Positions 22,022 to 54,989 of a stretch of DNA of 64,000 nucleotides are shown piece by piece. Below the pieces are notes generated by a model that made no database searches, had not been told where the DNA came from, and saw nothing but the letters and a program-made list of their open reading frames with translations. Every line of letters starts with the position of its first letter. Position 1 is the first letter of the stretch. The translations under genes were made by a program, and so were the position numbers. Origin of the DNA: Eukaryota sp. GEM-RC1 (Eukaryota); the NCBI GenBank assembly GCA_040285855.1, contig JAUFOQ010000002.1:2356001-2420000 (forward strand), given 5' to 3'.

Positions 22022-24528
22022 TTAAGTTGAAAATCTATTTGCTTTACACAACCCTCTTCGTTTCAATTTGTCAATAGTCTCACATCCATCAAACTCCTTT
22101 TTCTTTCCTTCCCAATATCTTGCCTTGTCTAAATCAACATCAGTACCTAACCCATTCCTATAAAACTTAATCAACTGGGAAATTCCGCTTCCATTATTAA
22201 GCTCTGCTGATTTCTTAAACAACTCAAAAGCCTTTTGATAGTTCTGACTGTCTCCAGTTTTTTCATACACATTAGTCCATAATTGGTCATTCCAACGGAA
22301 CTTCCTGATTCAGCAGCCATTTGATAATACTTGATGCCTTCATCAATGTCCTTTTCCACTCCATCACCTCTATAATATTGATATCCCAATTGAGCCATTG
22401 CACCAGCATTTCCTAATTCACAAGCAATCCTCAACAATCTGATACTTTCTTCCAGGTTTTTTCCACTCCATATCCATCTCTATAACAGACGATGAGCCAA
22501 AATAGGCCTTCAGAATTTAAATCTGCAGACTTTTTGAACCAATTAAATGCATGTTGAGGAGATTTGTAGATACCTTTACCACTGTAATAACAATGCCCTA
22601 AATTAACCATACCAAAAACGTGTCCCAATTCTGCAGATTTTTTAAAATATTGAAAAGCAGTTTCAAAATTCTGCTCAACCCCCAAACCCAAATAATAGCA
22701 AATTCCTAATTTGAAAATTGATTCCAAATGATTGGCATCAGCAGTTTTCTTAAATAAAACAAAAGCAGTTTCATAGTTTTGAGTAACATTTGTTCCATGG
22801 AAAAAGTCTAAAGCAGTTGAAAAAGAGCTTGGCAGACTTCTTTCATCGGGTCAACAAGATTCCTCCAGACTGTGAGCTCTTTTTCACGTGATGACAAGAG
22901 TTCAAGAGAATTCTTTGAGACAAATGAATTGATGAATGGTTCCAGTACTTCGTCAGTATTTAACTCTGCTATAATATTTAAAAATTGGCATTTGTTAGCA
23001 TCTGCTACCGGAATAGACTTTAAACATTTGACAAAAGAATCTATTGTCCATGAATCATTGAATTCTGTAGATTTCTTCCAGGAATTCACAAGGCTTCTCG
23101 CTAGCCATAAACAATAATCACTGGTAAGTTTTGAACAGAAAAGGTCCATGCAAATAGATGAACATGAAAAATTGGTTTCATATTTCAAATATTCAGAAGT
23201 AAGTACCAAAGGAAACATATTCACTAGAAATTTCAAATATTTGGAATAAAGTGGGCTTCCATCAACATGACATAACGTTACAAGAAACCAGGAGGGTGGA
23301 ATATTAGCAAAATTTTCCACATTTTTAAATATTCCGACTGTCCATTCAACTAAAACCGAAGTGAACTGACTATCGTGAAACAATAATTCAATAATTTCAT
23401 ATAACGCAAATAATGCAAATTCACGAACGGCCGCAGCAGTCAGTATTGGCTGTAATTCAGTAGCTAGAAACCCGTCTGATTTGTAAAGTTTCATTAAACA
23501 ATTAAACAACCAATAGAAATCAATATAAGGAAGTAAAAACTTAGTAAAAGAAACACTTAAAGGAATAGGTTCATGAGAAATACTTGAAGGAATTTTAAAT
23601 ATCTGAATATTATCAACTAAGAAGTTGAATTGATTTCGTTCATTGGAAATTTGAAGTAAATAGACCAACTCGTGTTCTGAAAACGAATTATAAGAAAGAA
23701 ACTCTTTACAAGCTAATTTCAGTTCATCTACTTGGAAATATACTGATAGTTGAAAGAAATCGAGAATATTTGAAATATTGAATTCAATAGACTCACAGTA
23801 GAATAATTGAAAAACTGGGAGAATACTTCGTCTGCAACACCCGGGAATTCAGTAGAATATTCAAATTTACGTATATTGGAGTCTGCAAATTCCGAAGTGA
23901 AAGAAGTGAAGAAGTGGTGTGAAACAAAAACAGAGTTTAATGTAATATCAGTGTTTTTGTAAGAAACGCGTACATCTGAGACACAAGATTCCACTATTTT
24001 TGAAGCTAAAACATCTGGTCTGAGCTGAAACTTGTTATCATCAAAGTTATCTAAACCTTTAGATATTCTCTCAGTAACAAACTTAGTTAGCTCCTGAAAT
24101 TGAGGAATAGAAGCAATAATAGAAAGGATCGAGAAAGATTGAGAGGTAACTGGAAGAGGTTGGCCGTAGAGAGTTGATAGAACCATAAAGAAAAGGTCAG
24201 GATCTGAAAGGAAAGGAAGAGAAGGAAACTCTACTGAAGACGATCGGAACAGCTGTTCTTTAAGATAAGAACTGAAGGAACTAACGACGAAAGAATGGCA
24301 GTGGAAGGGGAGATCATCGTAGAGAATTGCAGTGTCTGTAAGAAGATTCTTTTCTGAAAAGAGTGGAGCTTGGTGCAGAAAGAAGTCGAGGGTGAAGGAG
24401 AAAGTACCAGATAAAAAACTGGTTTCATCATGTGTATTAGAACTAGATGGTACATGCATATCGACAAGATCATCTTCCAGTGATTCTAGCTGTGGTGCTA
24501 GGCTCTGCGTCAAATCGGTTGGTAACAT
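22022..24528 (-). CDS. Tandem BTB/POZ-domain protein with C-terminal Sel1-like repeats; at least 4 frameshifts (error-broken gene or pseudogene)
   Basis: BTB-like FHCHSFVVSSFSSYLK and a second BTB (FTSEFADS...YFQVDELK). Sel1 repeats LGICYYLGLGVEQNFETAFQYFKKSAELG and LGYQYYRGDGVEKDIDEGIKYYQMAAE. Confidence 0.8.
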
Positions 24529-24938
24529 AGAAAATTTGAATTTGACTGTTAATGCTACTGCTACATCAGTTCAGTCGTAAACGTTACGTATAAAAACTTC
24601 ATAGTGGCAACTACTATGACTGTAGAAGTCAAATAGTAAGAAAAGGCAAAAATTATAGTGTATTGTAGTTTCACATATAGATATTTGTTGAGTCAAAAGT
24701 TTGAATTGATCACTTCTTTGAGGTTAACAAGAAATTGATATAGAATGTTTCAGTCTGAAAGGTGATACAGATTCAGATTGTTCTACTACTAGTACACGTA
24801 TTTTTACAAATGCTCTCATTGAGCTAAGTCTGTACGGATTTCTCATCAGTAACTGATTGGAGTTAGTCTCACTGAGACTATTTTCTATGGGATTGATCGA
24901 AATAATCGAGTAGACAGAGAGATTAAATCAACTCTGCA

Positions 24939-34168: not shown

Positions 34169-34979
34169 ATGTCAAACACCTCAATTGTTCGTTTCACTTT
34201 CGGTAAATCCACTTTCGAAATATTGACAAAACCTGGATCTATTTCTCAATATCGTAAAGGTCAACTGGGTCTTTCCAATTGTCTTGTAGGCGATGAAGTC
34301 TTTAAGAATGCTTCTTCTGGTGATCGTCCCAGTGATGCTGAGCTCATCGAAGCTTTTGGCACTGCCGATCAGTTCAAGGTGATCGAGAAGATTGCCAATG
34401 AGGGAGAAGTGCAGTTAACTGCATCTGAGCGTCGGGAACTCGTTGCAGCCAAACGAAGAGCCATGATTGCATACATTCACAAAAACTTCACAGACCCAAA
34501 GTCTGGACTGTATGTTTTCCATACTTGTGCTCTTATCTTAGTCCTATTCCTGTGACACGGATCGAAAATGCATTTGACCAAATTCATCTACGTATTGATC
34601 CATTCCAACCTGCTGAACGTCAAGTCCAGGAGCAGGTCATGAAACCAATCGTTTCCCTCATTCCCATGAAAAAATCGGAAATCGAAGGAACGGTATTCAT
34701 CCCTCATTCTGTATTGGGTTTGTCCATTTATTTATAATCTTTCTAATCTTAGGAAAGTGTTTATCTATTATCCATCAATATGCCAATGTCAACAAAGAAA
34801 ACTATACTGGAGAGGGTTGTGAGCTTCATGTAACTTTAGCCCCTGGTGACTATGATCAATTTAACAGGGAGCTTTCTGCTGCCTCTAAAGGTGAGGTGTC
34901 GATCAATATTGGTGGGACATCAGAACCTGCTGCTGATACAACGCAGTCAAAGAAGAAGGGTAAAGGAAGGAAGAAGTAG
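34169..34979 (+). CDS. SBDS/Sdo1-family ribosome maturation protein (archaeal-like sequence type); introns 34510-34541 and 34718-34752
   Basis: FEIL, VFKNASSGDRPS...AFGT, GEVQLTASERRELV...DPKSGL^PIPVTRIENA...IDPFQPAERQV, and domain III with PGDY...SKGE. Both introns restore frame. Confidence 0.92.
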
Positions 34980-37754: not shown

Positions 37755-39022
37755 ATGGCATCCGAACAAGCTAAACAAGAAATCCTCGCTTTGATCGAAG
37801 AACTCAAAACAGTGAAACACGAGCTTTATCAAGGTGACTATCTTCGTACTTGGGATCTTTCCGATGACACTATCAGAGCAGTCGTCCTTACTTCCCAAAT
37901 TTTGAAGAAGATGTGGGACAACAACATTTCAGCCAATGTCTTCACCTCTGGACTTGCTGTATCTCAATTCCGTGACAACAGTACCAGAACCAGATTTTCT
38001 TTTGCTTCTGCTGCTTCTCTCTTAGGGCTCAATGTACAAGATCTTGACGAGGAGAAGTCTCAAATTTCTCATGGAGAAACTGTCCGAGAAGTATGTGTCC
38101 TTATTCATGCTCACACCAGACTGCCAACATGATCTCTTTCTTGACTGAAGTGATCGGTATCAGAGACGACAAGTTCCTTGGTGCTGGACACACCTACCAA
38201 GTTGAAGTTGCCAAGGCTCTCGATGCCGGTGTTAAGGAAGGAGTCCTTCCCCAACGACCATGTATTGTTAACTTGCAATGTGATGAAGATCATCCCACCC
38301 AATCAATGTCCGATTTACTTCACTTAGTTGATCACTTTGGTGGTGTTGAGAACCTCAAGGGAAAGAAACTTGCTTTCACCTGGGCCTATTCTCCTTCGTA
38401 TGCATATTTCTCATGAATTCACCTCAGCTATGGCAAACCCTTGTCTGTCCCTCAAGGTGTTATTGGTCTTATGTCTAGATTTGGAATGGATATCCATCTA
38501 GCACATCCCGAAGGTTATGATCTCATTCCTGAAATCGTTGACTTAACCAAGGAACAATGTGAAAAGTCTGGAGGTAAGTTCACCCACGGAAATAGCATGG
38601 AAGAAGCTTTCAAGGATGCCGACATCATCTACCCCAAGTCATGGTGCCCCTTCCACATTATGGGAGAAAGAACCAAGTGTCTCAGAGCTGGTGATAAGGA
38701 TGGTCTCAACAAGCTAGAACAACAAGCCTTGAACCAGAACAAGAATCACATGGACTGGACCGTCACTGAAGATATGGTCAAGCTCACCAAGAACGCCGAC
38801 CCATTGTATCTACATTGTTTACCTGCAGATCTTTCCGGTGTTTCTTGTGAACACGGTGAAATTGATGGTGAAATCTTTGAACGTTTCCGTGTTGATACCT
38901 ACAAGGAAGCTTCTCACAAGCCTCATGTTATCTCATCTGCTGTTCTTCTTTCCAGATTCGAGGAAGCACCCAGAATCTTGAAGGAGTTAGTTGAAGAAAA
39001 CAAACCTCATAGAAGAGTTTAA
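37755..39022 (+). CDS. ygeW: YgeW-family (knotted) carbamoyltransferase, bacterial type; introns 38091-38119 and 38398-38427; 402 aa
   Basis: Diagnostic motifs [18 protein letters not shown]^[31 protein letters not shown]^[27 protein letters not shown] and TYKEAS. Both introns interrupt conserved motifs and restore them exactly. Confidence 0.96.
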
Positions 39023-44978: not shown

Positions 44979-46123
<1,145 letters not shown>

Positions 46124-46561: not shown

Positions 46562-49500
46562 TTATGTCTTTAAAGACAACAAACGAAACACTTCTACCGG
46601 TTTCAACTTAACTTTTGCTGTTGTGTATAATCGATTCAATGCACTGTCGACAATATCTTTTGATTCCTGCAAATGACGACAATAAAAATTAGTATTAATA
46701 ACGTTCAAATTACACTGTTTGTCAACTGCTTCGAGCAGTAGAAGAGCATCAGCTTCACCGTTCTCAATTGCTTGTTTAAGATGACGAATGGCATTGACAA
46801 CACTGAGACTAAGCAGCCCACTGCATTGCAAAGCCTGAATGAAGTGCTTGTTATTATGACGCTGTTCAGTTGATCGAGTCTGTGGTCTACATTTGATGAC
46901 TTGATCACGTGGCCTAAAAGAGAGTGGCTTCTGAATGTGTGTGATTGCTGATGGTTCTTGACTAACTCCACAAGTTCTAATGACAGAAGCAAGAGTATCA
47001 ATCCAATACTGAACTAGTTTACCATGAGTTTGGTTAATGAATTCTAGTGGTAATTCATCAAACAAGAACTTAGCTAGAGATATACGAGGCTTATCTGAAA
47101 TACCTTTAGCGTAACAGAAAGATGTACAACATGTGATGCAGTCCCGGTCAGAAGTAGTAAGAGTCTGACTTTGATTAAGCAAGAGTAGACTTTGAAGAGG
47201 ATTTGCTGAGGTGAAGGCATTGGACAATAAGACAAAGAGATTCTTACTCGAAACACTCTGCAAGTGAAAAAGAGAGACGAATTCTAACCATTCTTTCTCT
47301 AGAATGGTCAAAGAATTTTTAAATTTGTCCCATAATGACTGAAAATGATAGTCGAGTTGATTGATAAGCTTTTTTAGTCCAAAACGCCAACTCTGAATGT
47401 TCCTATTTACTTCGTTGGGAAGAAGTCTCACAAAGTCAAAAGTAATCACTTTTGATTGAGATTGAAGTGACCGTGATTTCTCCAAAAGCTCTGACTTACA
47501 CTTCCACCAATCTGTAAGTTCCTTAGTCACTTCCTCTTTCCAGAAAGAGGCAATGACATTAGACTCTTGTTCTAAAGGTGACAACAACTGATAGTACTTG
47601 CCAGCTTCTAAGTAGTCTTGTGAAGTTCCTAATCCTTTGAGACAGCAAAAGGCTAAAAGACTGTGAAGAATTTCCTTTGTTTGATGAGATTGAACTGACC
47701 AAAGACGGTGAGTTAGATTCAATAAAGATTGCATGCCATCAACCAAAACATCAAAGAGGGAAGTGCCATTAACAGGAGAAAGTATAACTGTCTTTAAAGA
47801 ATCTACCATGTTTTTAGCATTGTCTAATTCTTGATGAATCTTGTTTAGTTCATGGATGTCTTGGTGCTTCTGTAACAAATTTCTATGTCGAAACTTAAGT
47901 TGAATAATGTTATAGTTGGATCGAATCTCATTCCAATGGCAATCTGGCAGATAATTAACCAAGGTAGAAGGAATTGAAACAAGAGCAGATTCAAAAGAAG
48001 ATGAAGATTGTTTGAAAGAACTACACAGATAAGATGTTTTCTGACACGTGTACATGGTAACTTCATTAATCCAAAAAGAGATCAATTCATTATCTTGATT
48101 AGGAAAGTGATTAATCAATGACACGTCATCAAGAGCTCTATAGACATTTTCAATTGATGGAGAACTGGCCAAATTGTGAGCATAGCAAAAAGCAGTAAAT
48201 AATTTAAGAACTGATTGGTGATGATTATTTGAATTACACTCATTGTTCAAAGTGACTAGATTAAAAACTGAAGATTTGAGGAAGCTCAAAAGATCTTCAA
48301 ATTTACTGGTAACTAACTTAATAGAAGACAAAAAGTCCAAATGACGTTGAATTCCTTCCCAAATACCTTGACATTCTGATAGAAGAGCATTAGAGGGTTC
48401 AGAATCAAGATTCTGGGAATCAATCAAGGCCAACTTGTCTGCAACTATCTTGATCTCTTCTTTAATCTTATTGGGGAGAAGAGGAACAATGGTAGAACTC
48501 AAAGTAACTCCATCAATAAGAGCTCGATAGGTAGTTGATAGATCTTCTTTCTTAGAAGAAAACCATGAGTGAACTTCCTTGTACCAATAAATTGACATCA
48601 CATTCTTTTCATTTTCAATTCCTTCAATTTTGTTGTAATAACTAGTAGCCTTTCCTTCATTCTTCTCACATCCAATTCCCTTCAAATAACAATAGCTTAG
48701 ACAGGCTCTGTAAATATTTAAATTTGAACTACTTGACCATAACAAATCATCAACAGTTAGAAAAGAATTAGAAAAGAAAGTTAGAACCCGTGTTTCTTTC
48801 AAGGCAGTAATACAATGACTAAACAAATCTCCTTGAAGTTCGTCCAATAGAATCTCGATCATTAATGAATTATTTTGATCCAGCAAAGTTTCACAAGATT
48901 CGATTTTGGTTAATCTTAAATTCAAAACTTCTCGAGGTAACAACTCCTTAACTTCTAGTGGAAGTGAATCGAGCTCTATTTTGTACTTCAAAAGATTCGA
49001 ATTAGGAAGGTTTTGAGTACAATCTAAAACTTGAGTAGTTTCCAGTGATTGATCCTTTGAGATCGTATCTTGACTGTTACAACGTGATACTTTCCTAAAA
49101 GAGTCACTGGTAGTGACAGGACTAAAGACTCTGGTTATACTGGAAGTTCCATTTTTAGGTTGTTGTTTAGTTACTGTACGAGATAAATTTGGAGATTCCA
49201 GTCCTTGATTAATCAAGTTTTTAGAATTAGAAAGTGATTGTTTAATAGAGATCACTGATTCTTCTTGTTTAGGCAATAACTGTACACCCGAAGAATTCTT
49301 TTGTTTCTCCAAATTCTTTACGTTCAACTTCTTAGCAAAGTCAGTCAGAGAGTTCATCTTCTTTCCACAAGCAAGTGAAATGCATCCACCAAGGGCAATT
49401 TCTTCAAAAGCATTTAATGTTCGTTCAAACTGATTGCTTTGAAGATGGCCAAAATGAGACTTGATTGTGGTCTCAATTACAGGTACATAGGAAAAACCAC

Positions 49501-50427
49501 CAAGTAGAACAACTTTACTCAACTTTAATGAGTTTTTTACAAGGAATTGGTAAACTTTAGTCAACAGATTACCAAGTTGCATTAAATGTCCCTCAAGTCT
49601 AGCTTCAAAATCTCTTCTATTAACATCAATTTCAAAGTCATCTCCATCAATAAATGAACCAATTTCGAGCTCAACTTCAGGACAAGAAGACAGATTAACT
49701 CTAGTTTTTTTGATTTCTTGGTACAGCCTAAACATTGCCTTCTTGTTTTTAGTTACATCTTGGTCGAAAAGTTGGTTCGTTTTACCCACGCAAAGTTGTA
49801 ACAACTCATGATCAAGAAGTTGTCCTCGAAACGAAGTAGAAGACTTTGACAGAAGAATTTTTGCAGATTCATTGTTCATTTGAACTACTCCAATGTCTGT
49901 ACACATATAGCCAATGTCAAGAAATAGAACTACTTCAAGCTGGGTAGTCAATCGTGAGTTCATTTTGTAGAGGTAGCTCCAAGATAAGCAATAGAGGGGA
50001 TCTGTTCTGACAAGAGGTTGAGGAAAAAGATTCACAAACAGAGTACTAGTGGATTCAAGACATTTAGGTAAAGAAATGAAGACACTTCTTGGAGGTGATC
50101 CATTTTCAGACGAAAGATAGTCTAATAGTTGGTCAATGAAAGACTTTGATTGGATGGAGATATCAAAGTCTGCCTCGCTTACATCAGGAACAAAGGGAAA
50201 GAAGCAATCATCTGGAGTGGCAAGTAACAGTGGCAAATTCCAACATGAACCAGGTAAATTAAACTCCAACTGTTCGTCAGCAGAAGATCCAAAGAGACTA
50301 AGACGAGGAATTACTGCAAAGGGAAGAAACGGGAGTCATCATCTGACAGTGCTATACTGAAACTGTTCTCGAAAACAGCACCAACAATCCATTTTGAAGA
50401 ACCTACATCGATAACTAGATCGTACAT
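46562..50427 (-). CDS. Divergent Hsp70-like nucleotide-binding domain fused to a long helical region with isolated Sel1-like motifs; frameshift at ~50328
   Basis: Reconstructed start MYDLVIDVGSSKW...DDDSRFLP. Also VLFLDIGYMCTD, FRGQLLDHEL, KKAMFRLYQEIKKTRVNLS, DGDDFEIDVNRRDFE, VVLLGGFSYVP and EEIALG. Confidence 0.8.

Positions 50428-54220: not shown

Positions 54221-54989
<769 letters not shown>

What the first reader, a model, noticed from the sequence alone, without database searches (positions are those of the whole stretch)
37755..39022. Bacterial YgeW carbamoyltransferase domesticated in a eukaryote (two spliceosomal introns): possible anaerobic purine-to-ATP pathway
Seen: a complete 402-aa protein with every YgeW hallmark ([57 protein letters not shown]). 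It is split by 29- and 30-nt introns of the host type, sits between eukaryotic genes and has no obvious targeting presequence, so contamination is unlikely. Established: this is not the ordinary OTC/ATC type. YgeW belongs to the bacterial ygeW-ygeX-ygeY-hyuA-carbamate kinase/ssnA/ygfK locus used for anaerobic uric acid/purine breakdown, where carbamoyl phosphate released from a ureido intermediate feeds carbamate kinase. Inference: lateral transfer gave this flagellate a cytosolic substrate-level-phosphorylation route from purines, analogous to the arginine dihydrolase pathway. The partner genes are not in this window.
Basis: partly seen in the sequence, partly recalled or inferred. Interest (0 to 1): 0.9.

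Follow-up and report, generated by a model that had tools for sequence, protein, structure and literature searches.

The report
Bacterial urate-breakdown enzyme in anaerobic protists
An oxygen-avoiding single-celled eukaryote carries an intron-containing gene for YgeW, the enzyme with which gut bacteria turn uric-acid breakdown into ATP, and because several related protists carry this gene or a likely partner enzyme, they likely run a version of a pathway so far described only in bacteria.

Summary
Real. Removing introns 38091-38119 and 38398-38427 gives a 402-aa protein identical to GEMRC1_003638 of Skoliomonas sp. GEM-RC, a free-living anaerobic metamonad. It is YgeW (623 bits, cut-off 453; OTC 117 against 281), keeps 8 of 8 substrate-site residues and folds like the E. 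coli enzyme. The gene is not peculiar to this flagellate: two other Skoliomonas, Barthelona PCE and the jakobid Stygiella have it, and a Trichomonas copy was noted in 2015, function unknown. A long YgeY-like hydrolase, fused to YgeW in Stygiella and adjacent to a YgeW-like gene in bacteria, occurs in Skoliomonas RCL, Barthelona, Trimastix and Paratrimastix on a tree matching the hosts. A published orthogroup table shows it in 17 of 19 metamonads, beside SsnA-labelled, xanthine-dehydrogenase and second 'OTC' groups, all absent from Giardia and Spironucleus. Best reading (0.6): an old, unrecognised metamonad version of the reductive urate pathway solved in 2025. Not shown: partners or carbamate kinase in GEM-RC itself, splicing in reads, activity, donor. 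Earlier scan notes cover only bacterial versions; my paper searches listed no link to protists.

The parts
37755..38090 (+). ygeW exon 1 (aa 1-112; carbamoyl-phosphate motif [10 protein letters not shown]103 = E. coli Q98)
   Evidence: (NF005538 138 bits, profile 3-107)
38091..38119 (+). intron 1, 29 nt, GTATG..CAG, phase 0; retention shifts the frame
   Evidence: spliced product = P0001
38120..38397 (+). ygeW exon 2 (aa 113-205; D129, Q165, HPTQ, start of the proline-rich loop)
   Evidence: (154 bits)
38398..38427 (+). intron 2, 30 nt, GTATG..CAG, phase 2, holds an in-frame TGA
38428..39022 (+). ygeW exon 3 (aa 205-402; K208, K275, HCLPAD with D339, E349; stop)
   Evidence: (288 bits)
34169..34979 (+). 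neighbouring host SBDS gene with 32- and 35-nt introns (34510-34541, 34718-34752); used only as a host-intron control

Best explanation
The gene encodes a YgeW-family carbamoyltransferase that likely splits one ureido group off 2,3-diureidopropionate with phosphate, so that carbamate kinase would turn the carbamoyl phosphate into ATP, as the energy step of a likely metamonad version of the reductive urate (2,8-dioxopurine) pathway. Shown here: the gene structure, family membership, the fold, and YgeW in four BaSk genomes and Stygiella; a long YgeY-like hydrolase in BaSk, Preaxostyla and Stygiella. Known from bacteria: the reaction and its coupling to ATP. Inferred: purines from digested bacteria go by xanthine dehydrogenase to urate; a molybdenum enzyme, a dihydropyrimidine-dehydrogenase-like reductase (as UacX in C. 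difficile), an SsnA-like and a hydantoinase-like enzyme give diureidopropionate; YgeW acts; long YgeY removes the second ureido group; a threonine-synthase-like PLP enzyme, not YgeX, would release pyruvate for PFO and ACS. The module was probably present in the common ancestor of metamonads and lost in Giardia and Spironucleus.
For: YgeW HMMs pass curated cut-offs for 3 of 3 Skoliomonas proteins; 8 of 8 second-substrate residues of Shi et al. kept; model pLDDT 95, TM 0.92-0.94 to 3q98/2yfk against at most 0.69 to other transcarbamylases listed. E. coli YgeW + YqeA make ATP from diureidopropionate (one search agrees on the substrate). Partner: long YgeY in Skoliomonas RCL (RCL1_004417, contig of the same length as that of its ygeW), Barthelona PAP020, Paratrimastix, Trimastix; fused to YgeW in Stygiella and in unnamed P0135; next to a YgeW-like gene in 5 of 6 bacterial regions, with carbamate kinase, YgfK-like, XdhD-like or PLP genes beside. 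Its tree follows the hosts: BaSk pair 100/97, Preaxostyla 100/98, together 99/94; all eukaryote rows plus 2 unnamed against 26 others 97/94. SsnA-YgeW fusions exist in 2 unnamed proteins. Orthogroups over 19 metamonads (Novak 2023, counted in 117): long YgeY 17, SsnA-labelled 16, XDH 16, DPD 14, ThrC-like 14, second 'OTC' 13, dihydropyrimidinase 9, YqeB 8, carbamate kinase 17; all 13 taxa with the second 'OTC' also have long YgeY, XDH and ThrC-like. No uricase, urate oxidase or allantoinase label in those supplements. P. pyriformis keeps carbamate kinase without ADI.
Against: No partner and no carbamate kinase is shown for GEM-RC: none in the window, no genome; the long-YgeY list showed RCL but neither GEM-RC nor S. 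litria among the 120 rows listed of 1378. Long YgeY scores 190-208 bits against a cut-off of 321, and its activity is unknown; in Planctomycetota it goes with a divergent YgeW type (6 of 6), not with the canonical type the protists have (0 of 12). The orthogroups are labels, not sequences I tested: only long YgeY is anchored by a sequence (Trimastix 538 = P0498); second 'OTC' = YgeW rests on elimination among the five Trichomonas entries; the SsnA-labelled group may hold deaminase paralogues; XDH and DPD have eukaryote-type best hits and have ordinary roles. Giardia and Spironucleus lack many genes, so joint absence is weak. One origin of eukaryote YgeW is unresolved, not rejected (AU p 0.43), and not recovered in a rooted quick tree. 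'carbam' has no hit in the RNA top-100 tables, so the gene is not labelled among the most expressed.
Confidence: 0.6

Rival explanations
1. YgeW and long YgeY finish reductive pyrimidine breakdown instead: DPD and dihydropyrimidinase give 3-ureidopropionate, which YgeW would split with phosphate to beta-alanine and carbamoyl phosphate for ATP.
For: DPD has eukaryote-type best hits and co-occurs with the second 'OTC' in 12 of 13 taxa. Beta-ureidopropionase is listed for Trimastix and Paratrimastix but for none of 3 oxymonads, which keep DPD and dihydropyrimidinase. 3-ureidopropionate resembles the 3-ureido end that Liu et al. say YgeW cleaves (the resemblance is my inference).
Against: Does not explain SsnA-YgeW fusions, YqeB/YqeC accessory genes, the ThrC-like group, or a need for a second ureido hydrolase; the substrate-site residues equal those of the E. 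coli enzyme.
Confidence: 0.17
2. In Skoliomonas only the lower module survives: YgeW and long YgeY scavenge ureido compounds that come with prey or from neighbouring bacteria, with no urate reduction in the cell.
For: Only YgeW (3 species) and long YgeY (1 species) are shown for Skoliomonas. Earlier scan notes describe stand-alone bacterial trios of carbamate kinase, YgeW and YgeY (unchecked).
Against: Other metamonads with the second 'OTC' nearly always keep the upstream labels too; free diureidopropionate is an unlikely food (inference).
Confidence: 0.15
3. The protein has been repurposed as a catabolic citrulline or peptidyl-citrulline transcarbamylase in arginine breakdown, or supplies carbamoyl phosphate for another use.
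For: Members of the second 'OTC' group are annotated as OTC; Shi et al. raised citrulline peptides as possible substrates before 2025.
Against: OTC score 117 against a cut-off of 281; separate from OTC/ATC at 99; most metamonads keep a true OTC as well (16 of 19); active site unchanged.
Confidence: 0.07
4. Bacterial contamination or a dead gene.
For: Best bacterial identity 63-65%; splicing not seen in reads.
Against: Two host-type introns whose removal restores conserved motifs, eukaryotic neighbours, 3.7-Mb contig, orthologues 76-77% identical in two sister species forming a 100/100 clade.
Confidence: 0.01

Closest known systems
E. coli YgeW (YTCase, PDB 3q98; E. faecalis 2yfk) in the reductive urate / 2,8-dioxopurine pathway (Liu et al. 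2025, bioRxiv 10.1101/2025.04.24.650524; Li et al. 2025, PMC12507026)
   Same: Family HMM, motifs, 8 of 8 substrate-site residues, fold (TM 0.92-0.94).
   Different: Nuclear gene with two spliceosomal introns, no operon; partner is the long YgeY sister subfamily; no YgeX label in the tables searched; fusions YgeW-long YgeY and SsnA-YgeW in other proteins. Percudani 2025 describes the pathway as restricted to anaerobic bacteria.
Trichomonas vaginalis YTCase XP_001326968 (Shi, Allewell, Tuchman 2015, PMC4581275); split second copy listed as a lateral transfer by Alsmark et al. 2013 (PMC4053834)
   Same: YgeW in a metamonad, seen as bacterial in origin.
   Different: Noted before the function was known and not linked to purines or partners in the passages read. 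I could not obtain the sequence, so its kinship to the Skoliomonas gene is untested.
Environmental bacterial variants: carbamate kinase - divergent YgeW - long YgeY, with ThrC/CysK-like PLP enzymes in place of YgeX
   Same: Long YgeY 54-57% identical to the Skoliomonas RCL protein; same neighbours as the labels shared by metamonads.
   Different: Their YgeW is a divergent type (39-44% to P0001), whereas the protists carry the canonical type; uncharacterised.
Arginine deiminase pathway of metamonads (Novak et al. 2016, PMC5052871)
   Same: Catabolic transcarbamylase plus carbamate kinase gives one ATP; old acquisition in Metamonada.
   Different: Another enzyme family (unknotted OTC) and substrate; the two would share carbamate kinase (inferred).

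Membership tests
YgeW / YTCase | Score above curated cut-off of NF005538 and TIGR03316 | tested here: met
   623 vs 453 and 606 vs 500 bits
YgeW / YTCase | Carbamoyl-phosphate motifs FxxxSxRT, HPxQ, HxLP (Shi 2015) | tested here: met
YgeW / YTCase | Second-substrate residues Q98, D124, Q160, S200, K203, K270, D334, E344 | tested here: met
   8 of 8; also kept in the 4 divergent bacterial rows, so they do not fix the substrate
YgeW / YTCase | YTCase fold with proline-rich loop and extra terminal and 240s-loop helices | tested here: met
   AlphaFold2 model, TM 0.92-0.94, rmsd 0.9-1.4 to 2yfk and 3q98; the knot itself was not computed
YgeW / YTCase | Phosphorolysis of 2,3-diureidopropionate | not testable with these tools
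   shown only for the E. coli enzyme
Canonical OTC | TIGR00658 cut-off; branching with OTC | tested here: not met
   117.5 vs 280.85 bits; 16 YgeW rows apart from 7 OTC/ATC rows at 99
AOTC and putrescine transcarbamylase | NF003384 and TIGR04384 cut-offs | tested here: not met
   110 vs 288; 102 vs 500 bits; not placed in a tree
Reductive urate (2,8-dioxopurine) pathway | YgeY ureido hydrolase | tested here: inconclusive
   long sister subfamily, best model YgeY but under cut-off; found in RCL and Barthelona PAP020, not among listed rows for GEM-RC
Reductive urate (2,8-dioxopurine) pathway | SsnA ring-opening amidohydrolase | tested here: inconclusive
   bait search listed no named eukaryote in 120 of 2950 rows, bait only 37-45% to any row; SsnA-YgeW fusions; SsnA-labelled group in 16 of 19 other metamonads
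Reductive urate (2,8-dioxopurine) pathway | XdhD/XdhAC, YgfK or UacX, HyuA | not testable with these tools
   no genome; none in window; only labels in other metamonads
Reductive urate (2,8-dioxopurine) pathway | YgeX diaminopropionate ammonia-lyase | not testable with these tools
   no genome; 'diaminopropionate' 0 hits in the Preaxostyla supplements, one file cut when stored, and in 12 of 16 Alsmark files
Reductive urate (2,8-dioxopurine) pathway | Carbamate kinase | not testable with these tools
   not shown for any Skoliomonas; 17 of 19 other metamonads have it
Reductive urate (2,8-dioxopurine) pathway | Genes clustered at one locus | tested here: not met
   ORFs of 80 bacterial ygeW loci hit only ygeW in the 64-kb window; expected of a eukaryote

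The most novel reading that the evidence does not exclude
The common ancestor of Metamonada already ran a complete reductive purine-to-pyruvate pathway with an ATP step, shared with the jakobid Stygiella and other anaerobic protists (some as SsnA-YgeW or YgeW-YgeY fusions), kept today in Skoliomonas, oxymonads, Trichomonas and Histomonas under wrong labels (OTC, threonine synthase, peptidase T), and lost in Giardia and Spironucleus. The 'gut-bacterial' urate pathway would then be ancient and eukaryotic too, and gut protists would be candidate urate consumers.
Probability: 0.45. Interest if true: 0.88.

Novelty: new variant of a known kind. Interest (0 to 1): 0.72.

Why it matters
The pathway was solved in 2025 and is described as restricted to anaerobic bacteria, with its age named as an open question and a recent gut origin favoured (Percudani 2025). 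An intron-bearing YgeW in free-living soda-lake flagellates, and a partner whose tree follows the metamonad hosts, argue for great age and make the question testable with existing genomes. It would add an ATP source to organisms with reduced or lost mitochondria, where only PFO/ACS was reconstructed, would give a use for xanthine dehydrogenase without uricase and for carbamate kinase without ADI, and would re-label a set of genes in Trichomonas, Histomonas and oxymonads that live in urate-rich guts.

Tried and rejected
No whole genome or relatives held, so GEM-RC could not be searched for partners. RNA runs: no RNA holder listed; no reads laid. A pattern for ygeW with an intron at position 1 found 0 stretches in JGI metagenomes; a locus search with long YgeY found 20 pattern hits, none confirmed. 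The SsnA bait search was uninformative. Donor search: 40-row tree gives no sister group; Ca. Muiribacterium is the best tblastn hit but is not sister. The tree was the quick one in place of an unfinished careful run; one search had P0407 trimmed wrongly and was redone. In one search long branches met (P0145 with the divergent type) and were left out of the AU test together with Barthelona. The first intron coordinates typed were off; the enumeration in the same call gave the right ones. ESM Atlas: only YgeW-type clusters, nothing on range. Li et al. 2011 (PMC3115391) and the journal version of Liu et al. (PMC12666987) are not held. Contamination, canonical OTC, AOTC and putrescine transcarbamylase rejected.

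Full report
Observation. The gene runs from 37755 to 39022 on the + strand. Of the GT..AG pairs around the two breaks, 4 combinations give an open frame and one restores the conserved motifs: introns 38091-38119 (29 nt) and 38398-38427 (30 nt, with an in-frame stop), giving 402 aa. That product is identical to P0001, GenBank GEMRC1_003638 of Eukaryota sp. GEM-RC1 on a 3.72-Mb contig, the Skoliomonas sp. GEMRC of Williams et al. 2024 (matching of the names GEM-RC1, TZLM3-RCL and TZLM1-RC to Skoliomonas GEMRC, RCL and S. litria is partly recalled; the paper's sections name the species). Neighbours are eukaryotic, the SBDS gene next door has 32- and 35-nt introns, and codon usage is nearer host genes than 4 of 5 bacterial ygeW genes. 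No RNA run was available to see splicing.

Identity. P0001 passes both YgeW cut-offs (623/453, 606/500) and fails OTC, AOTC and putrescine models. It keeps the three carbamoyl-phosphate motifs and 8 of 8 second-substrate residues named by Shi et al. 2015. The AlphaFold2 model (49-row alignment, pLDDT 95) matches 2yfk and 3q98 at TM 0.92-0.94, other listed transcarbamylases at 0.69 or less. In a 23-row quick tree the 16 YgeW-type rows stand apart from 7 OTC/ATC rows at 99.

Known function. Liu et al. (preprint, passages) show that E. coli YgeW cleaves 2,3-diureidopropionate and, with carbamate kinase YqeA, makes ATP; Li et al. (passages) agree on the substrate and differ on which ureido group goes first; in C. 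difficile a DPD-like UacX replaces YgfK. Percudani (whole text) calls the route restricted to anaerobic bacteria and leaves its age open.

Range in eukaryotes. The top three hits of exon 3, of 7981 passing, are the three Skoliomonas proteins; they are 76-77% identical, 63-68% to the best bacteria, and form a 100/100 clade with no resolved sister among 37 bacterial rows. A profile search of 50% representatives (150 listed of 2330) added Barthelona sp. PCE PCE1_000452 (divergent, 375 bits, under the cut-off), an unnamed YgeW + YgeY-like fusion (P0135) and two unnamed SsnA + YgeW fusions (P0145, P0246) (10 of the 150 were looked up). Shi et al. 2015 (section 3 and passages) already name a YTCase in Trichomonas vaginalis, and Alsmark et al. 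2013 (supplement file 10) list its split copy, a D-hydantoinase, an M20 enzyme, a chlorohydrolase/aminohydrolase, YqeC and cysteine- and threonine-synthase-like proteins as separate transfers. So a eukaryotic YgeW as such is in print.

Partner. Using the M20 domain of P0135 as bait, the 120 rows listed of 1378 held Skoliomonas RCL RCL1_004417, Barthelona PAP020, Paratrimastix, Trimastix, and a fusion whose cluster holds a Stygiella incarcerata transcript product of 888 aa. GEM-RC and S. litria were not among the listed rows. These ~510-aa proteins hit YgeY best but at 190-208 bits against 321: a sister subfamily. In 301 genomes of the phylum of G006, 6 hold it; in 5 of 6 regions it lies next to a YgeW-like gene, with carbamate kinase, YgfK-like, XdhD-like or PLP genes nearby. 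Those 6 genomes are the 6 with a divergent YgeW type, while 12 with canonical YgeW lack it; the protist pair, canonical YgeW with long YgeY, is thus a combination not seen in this sample. A careful tree of 34 rows (26 of 34 non-redundant non-named hits were used, plus 2 genome rows) groups Skoliomonas with Barthelona (100/97), Trimastix with Paratrimastix and unnamed P0464 (100/98), these together (99/94), and all eukaryote rows plus P0464 and P0407 against 26 others (97/94). That is the host tree, and points to inheritance from the metamonad ancestor; the tree has no true root.

Origin of YgeW. Eight of 8 eukaryote or eukaryote-like rows that cover position 31 have Arg there, against 2 of 22 typical and 0 of 4 divergent bacterial rows. 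In the careful 35-row tree 19 typical bacterial rows form one side (94/93); the eukaryote rows, 3 Planctomycetota rows and the divergent type lie unresolved on the other. One clade of 7 eukaryote-like rows is not rejected (AU p 0.43; Barthelona, P0145 and the divergent type left out), but the rooted LG+G4 quick tree places Skoliomonas next to typical bacteria (87) and the others as a grade. Transfer from bacteria is likely from the distribution; donor, number of events and even direction are not shown.

Rest of the pathway. None lies in the window. For other metamonads I read orthogroup rows of Novak et al. 2023 (supplement files 2, 3 and 5; file 3 was cut when stored; BaSk not included) and counted by hand, of 19 taxa: long YgeY 17 (anchored by Trimastix 538 = P0498), SsnA-labelled 16, XDH 16, DPD 14, ThrC-like with bacterial best hits 14, second 'OTC' 13, dihydropyrimidinase 9, YqeB 8, carbamate kinase 17, canonical OTC 16. 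The first eight are all empty in Giardia and Spironucleus. The second 'OTC' group holds two Trichomonas genes other than the two that group with Giardia OTC, hence YgeW by elimination (inference). I chose these groups by label, many columns are transcriptomes, and the two parasites are reduced, so this is a lead, not a test. No uricase, urate oxidase, allantoinase or diaminopropionate label was found; beta-ureidopropionase is listed for 2 of 5 Preaxostyla, which feeds the pyrimidine rival. The idea of looking for a ThrC-like enzyme came from earlier scan notes.

Prior art. Williams et al. 2024: 'carbam', 'arginine', 'purine', 'uric' have 0 hits in the main text and six terms have 0 hits in 5 of 6 held supplements; the main supplementary PDF was too large to read and may bear on this; sections on genomes, ATP and methods read, first part of the expression table seen. 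Novak 2023 main text: 'purine' and 'uric' 0 hits, amino-acid section read. Xu et al. 2016 read Trepomonas XDH, DPD and dihydropyrimidinase as salvage (passages). Wisniewska 2024, Leger 2016, Novak 2016, the 2026 ciliate paper and the 2026 urate review: passages, no such link. Ten listings showed no paper joining protists with ygeW or the 2,8-dioxopurine route; the library lacks most subscription papers. Earlier scan notes are all bacterial; none for this genome or for eukaryotes.

Verdict. The most likely reading (0.6) is that it is the ATP-yielding step of an old metamonad version of reductive purine breakdown; rivals are a pyrimidine route (0.17), a lower-half scavenging module (0.15), repurposing (0.07) and contamination (0.01). 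New variant of a known pathway; interest 0.72, 0.88 if the whole route proves ancestral and active.

Noticed in passing
P0145, P0246 (unnamed): Two SsnA-YgeW fusion proteins in unnamed Logan and ENA contigs; they fall with the eukaryote-like rows but their organisms are unknown.
   Followed up: partly
P0529 / P0413: Stygiella incarcerata has a YgeW + long YgeY fusion of 888 aa; its predicted proteins also include a xanthine dehydrogenase and an amidohydrolase matched by the SsnA-labelled group.
   Followed up: partly
Novak 2023 supplements, orthogroup q2001822: Its members are annotated as OTC EC 2.1.3.3, probably wrongly; the Paratrimastix member PAPYR_676 has a predicted mitochondrial targeting signal, so YgeW may not be cytosolic everywhere.
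   Followed up: partly
P0407: Unnamed long YgeY that groups with Stygiella and has an N-terminal stretch rich in Arg, Leu and Ser that looks like an organelle-targeting peptide.
   Followed up: no
P0144, Barthelona PCE1_000452: Very long branch (3.75), under the family cut-off, STRTK in place of STRTR, yet all 8 substrate-site residues kept.
   Followed up: partly
Alsmark 2013 supplement file 10: T. vaginalis transfers listed one by one (YgeW halves, D-hydantoinase, M20, aminohydrolase, YqeC, two cysteine-synthase-like, threonine synthase) read together like the environmental urate operon.
   Followed up: partly
window 46562-50335 (-): 1257-aa ORF with a divergent HSP70 domain and weak Sel1 repeats; another BTB/Sel1 gene lies at 22431-24570 (-).
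   Followed up: no
window 44979-45989 and 54221-54989 (-): Two polyubiquitin arrays about 9 kb apart, each seemingly broken into more than one ORF.
   Followed up: no
window 34718-34752: The second SBDS intron starts GTTTG rather than GTATG.
   Followed up: no
L042 (G008, 0.6 Mb): A very small bacterial genome with adjacent YgeW (with the Arg of the eukaryote-like motif), a carbamate-kinase-like and an OTC-like ORF; not included in the trees.
   Followed up: no
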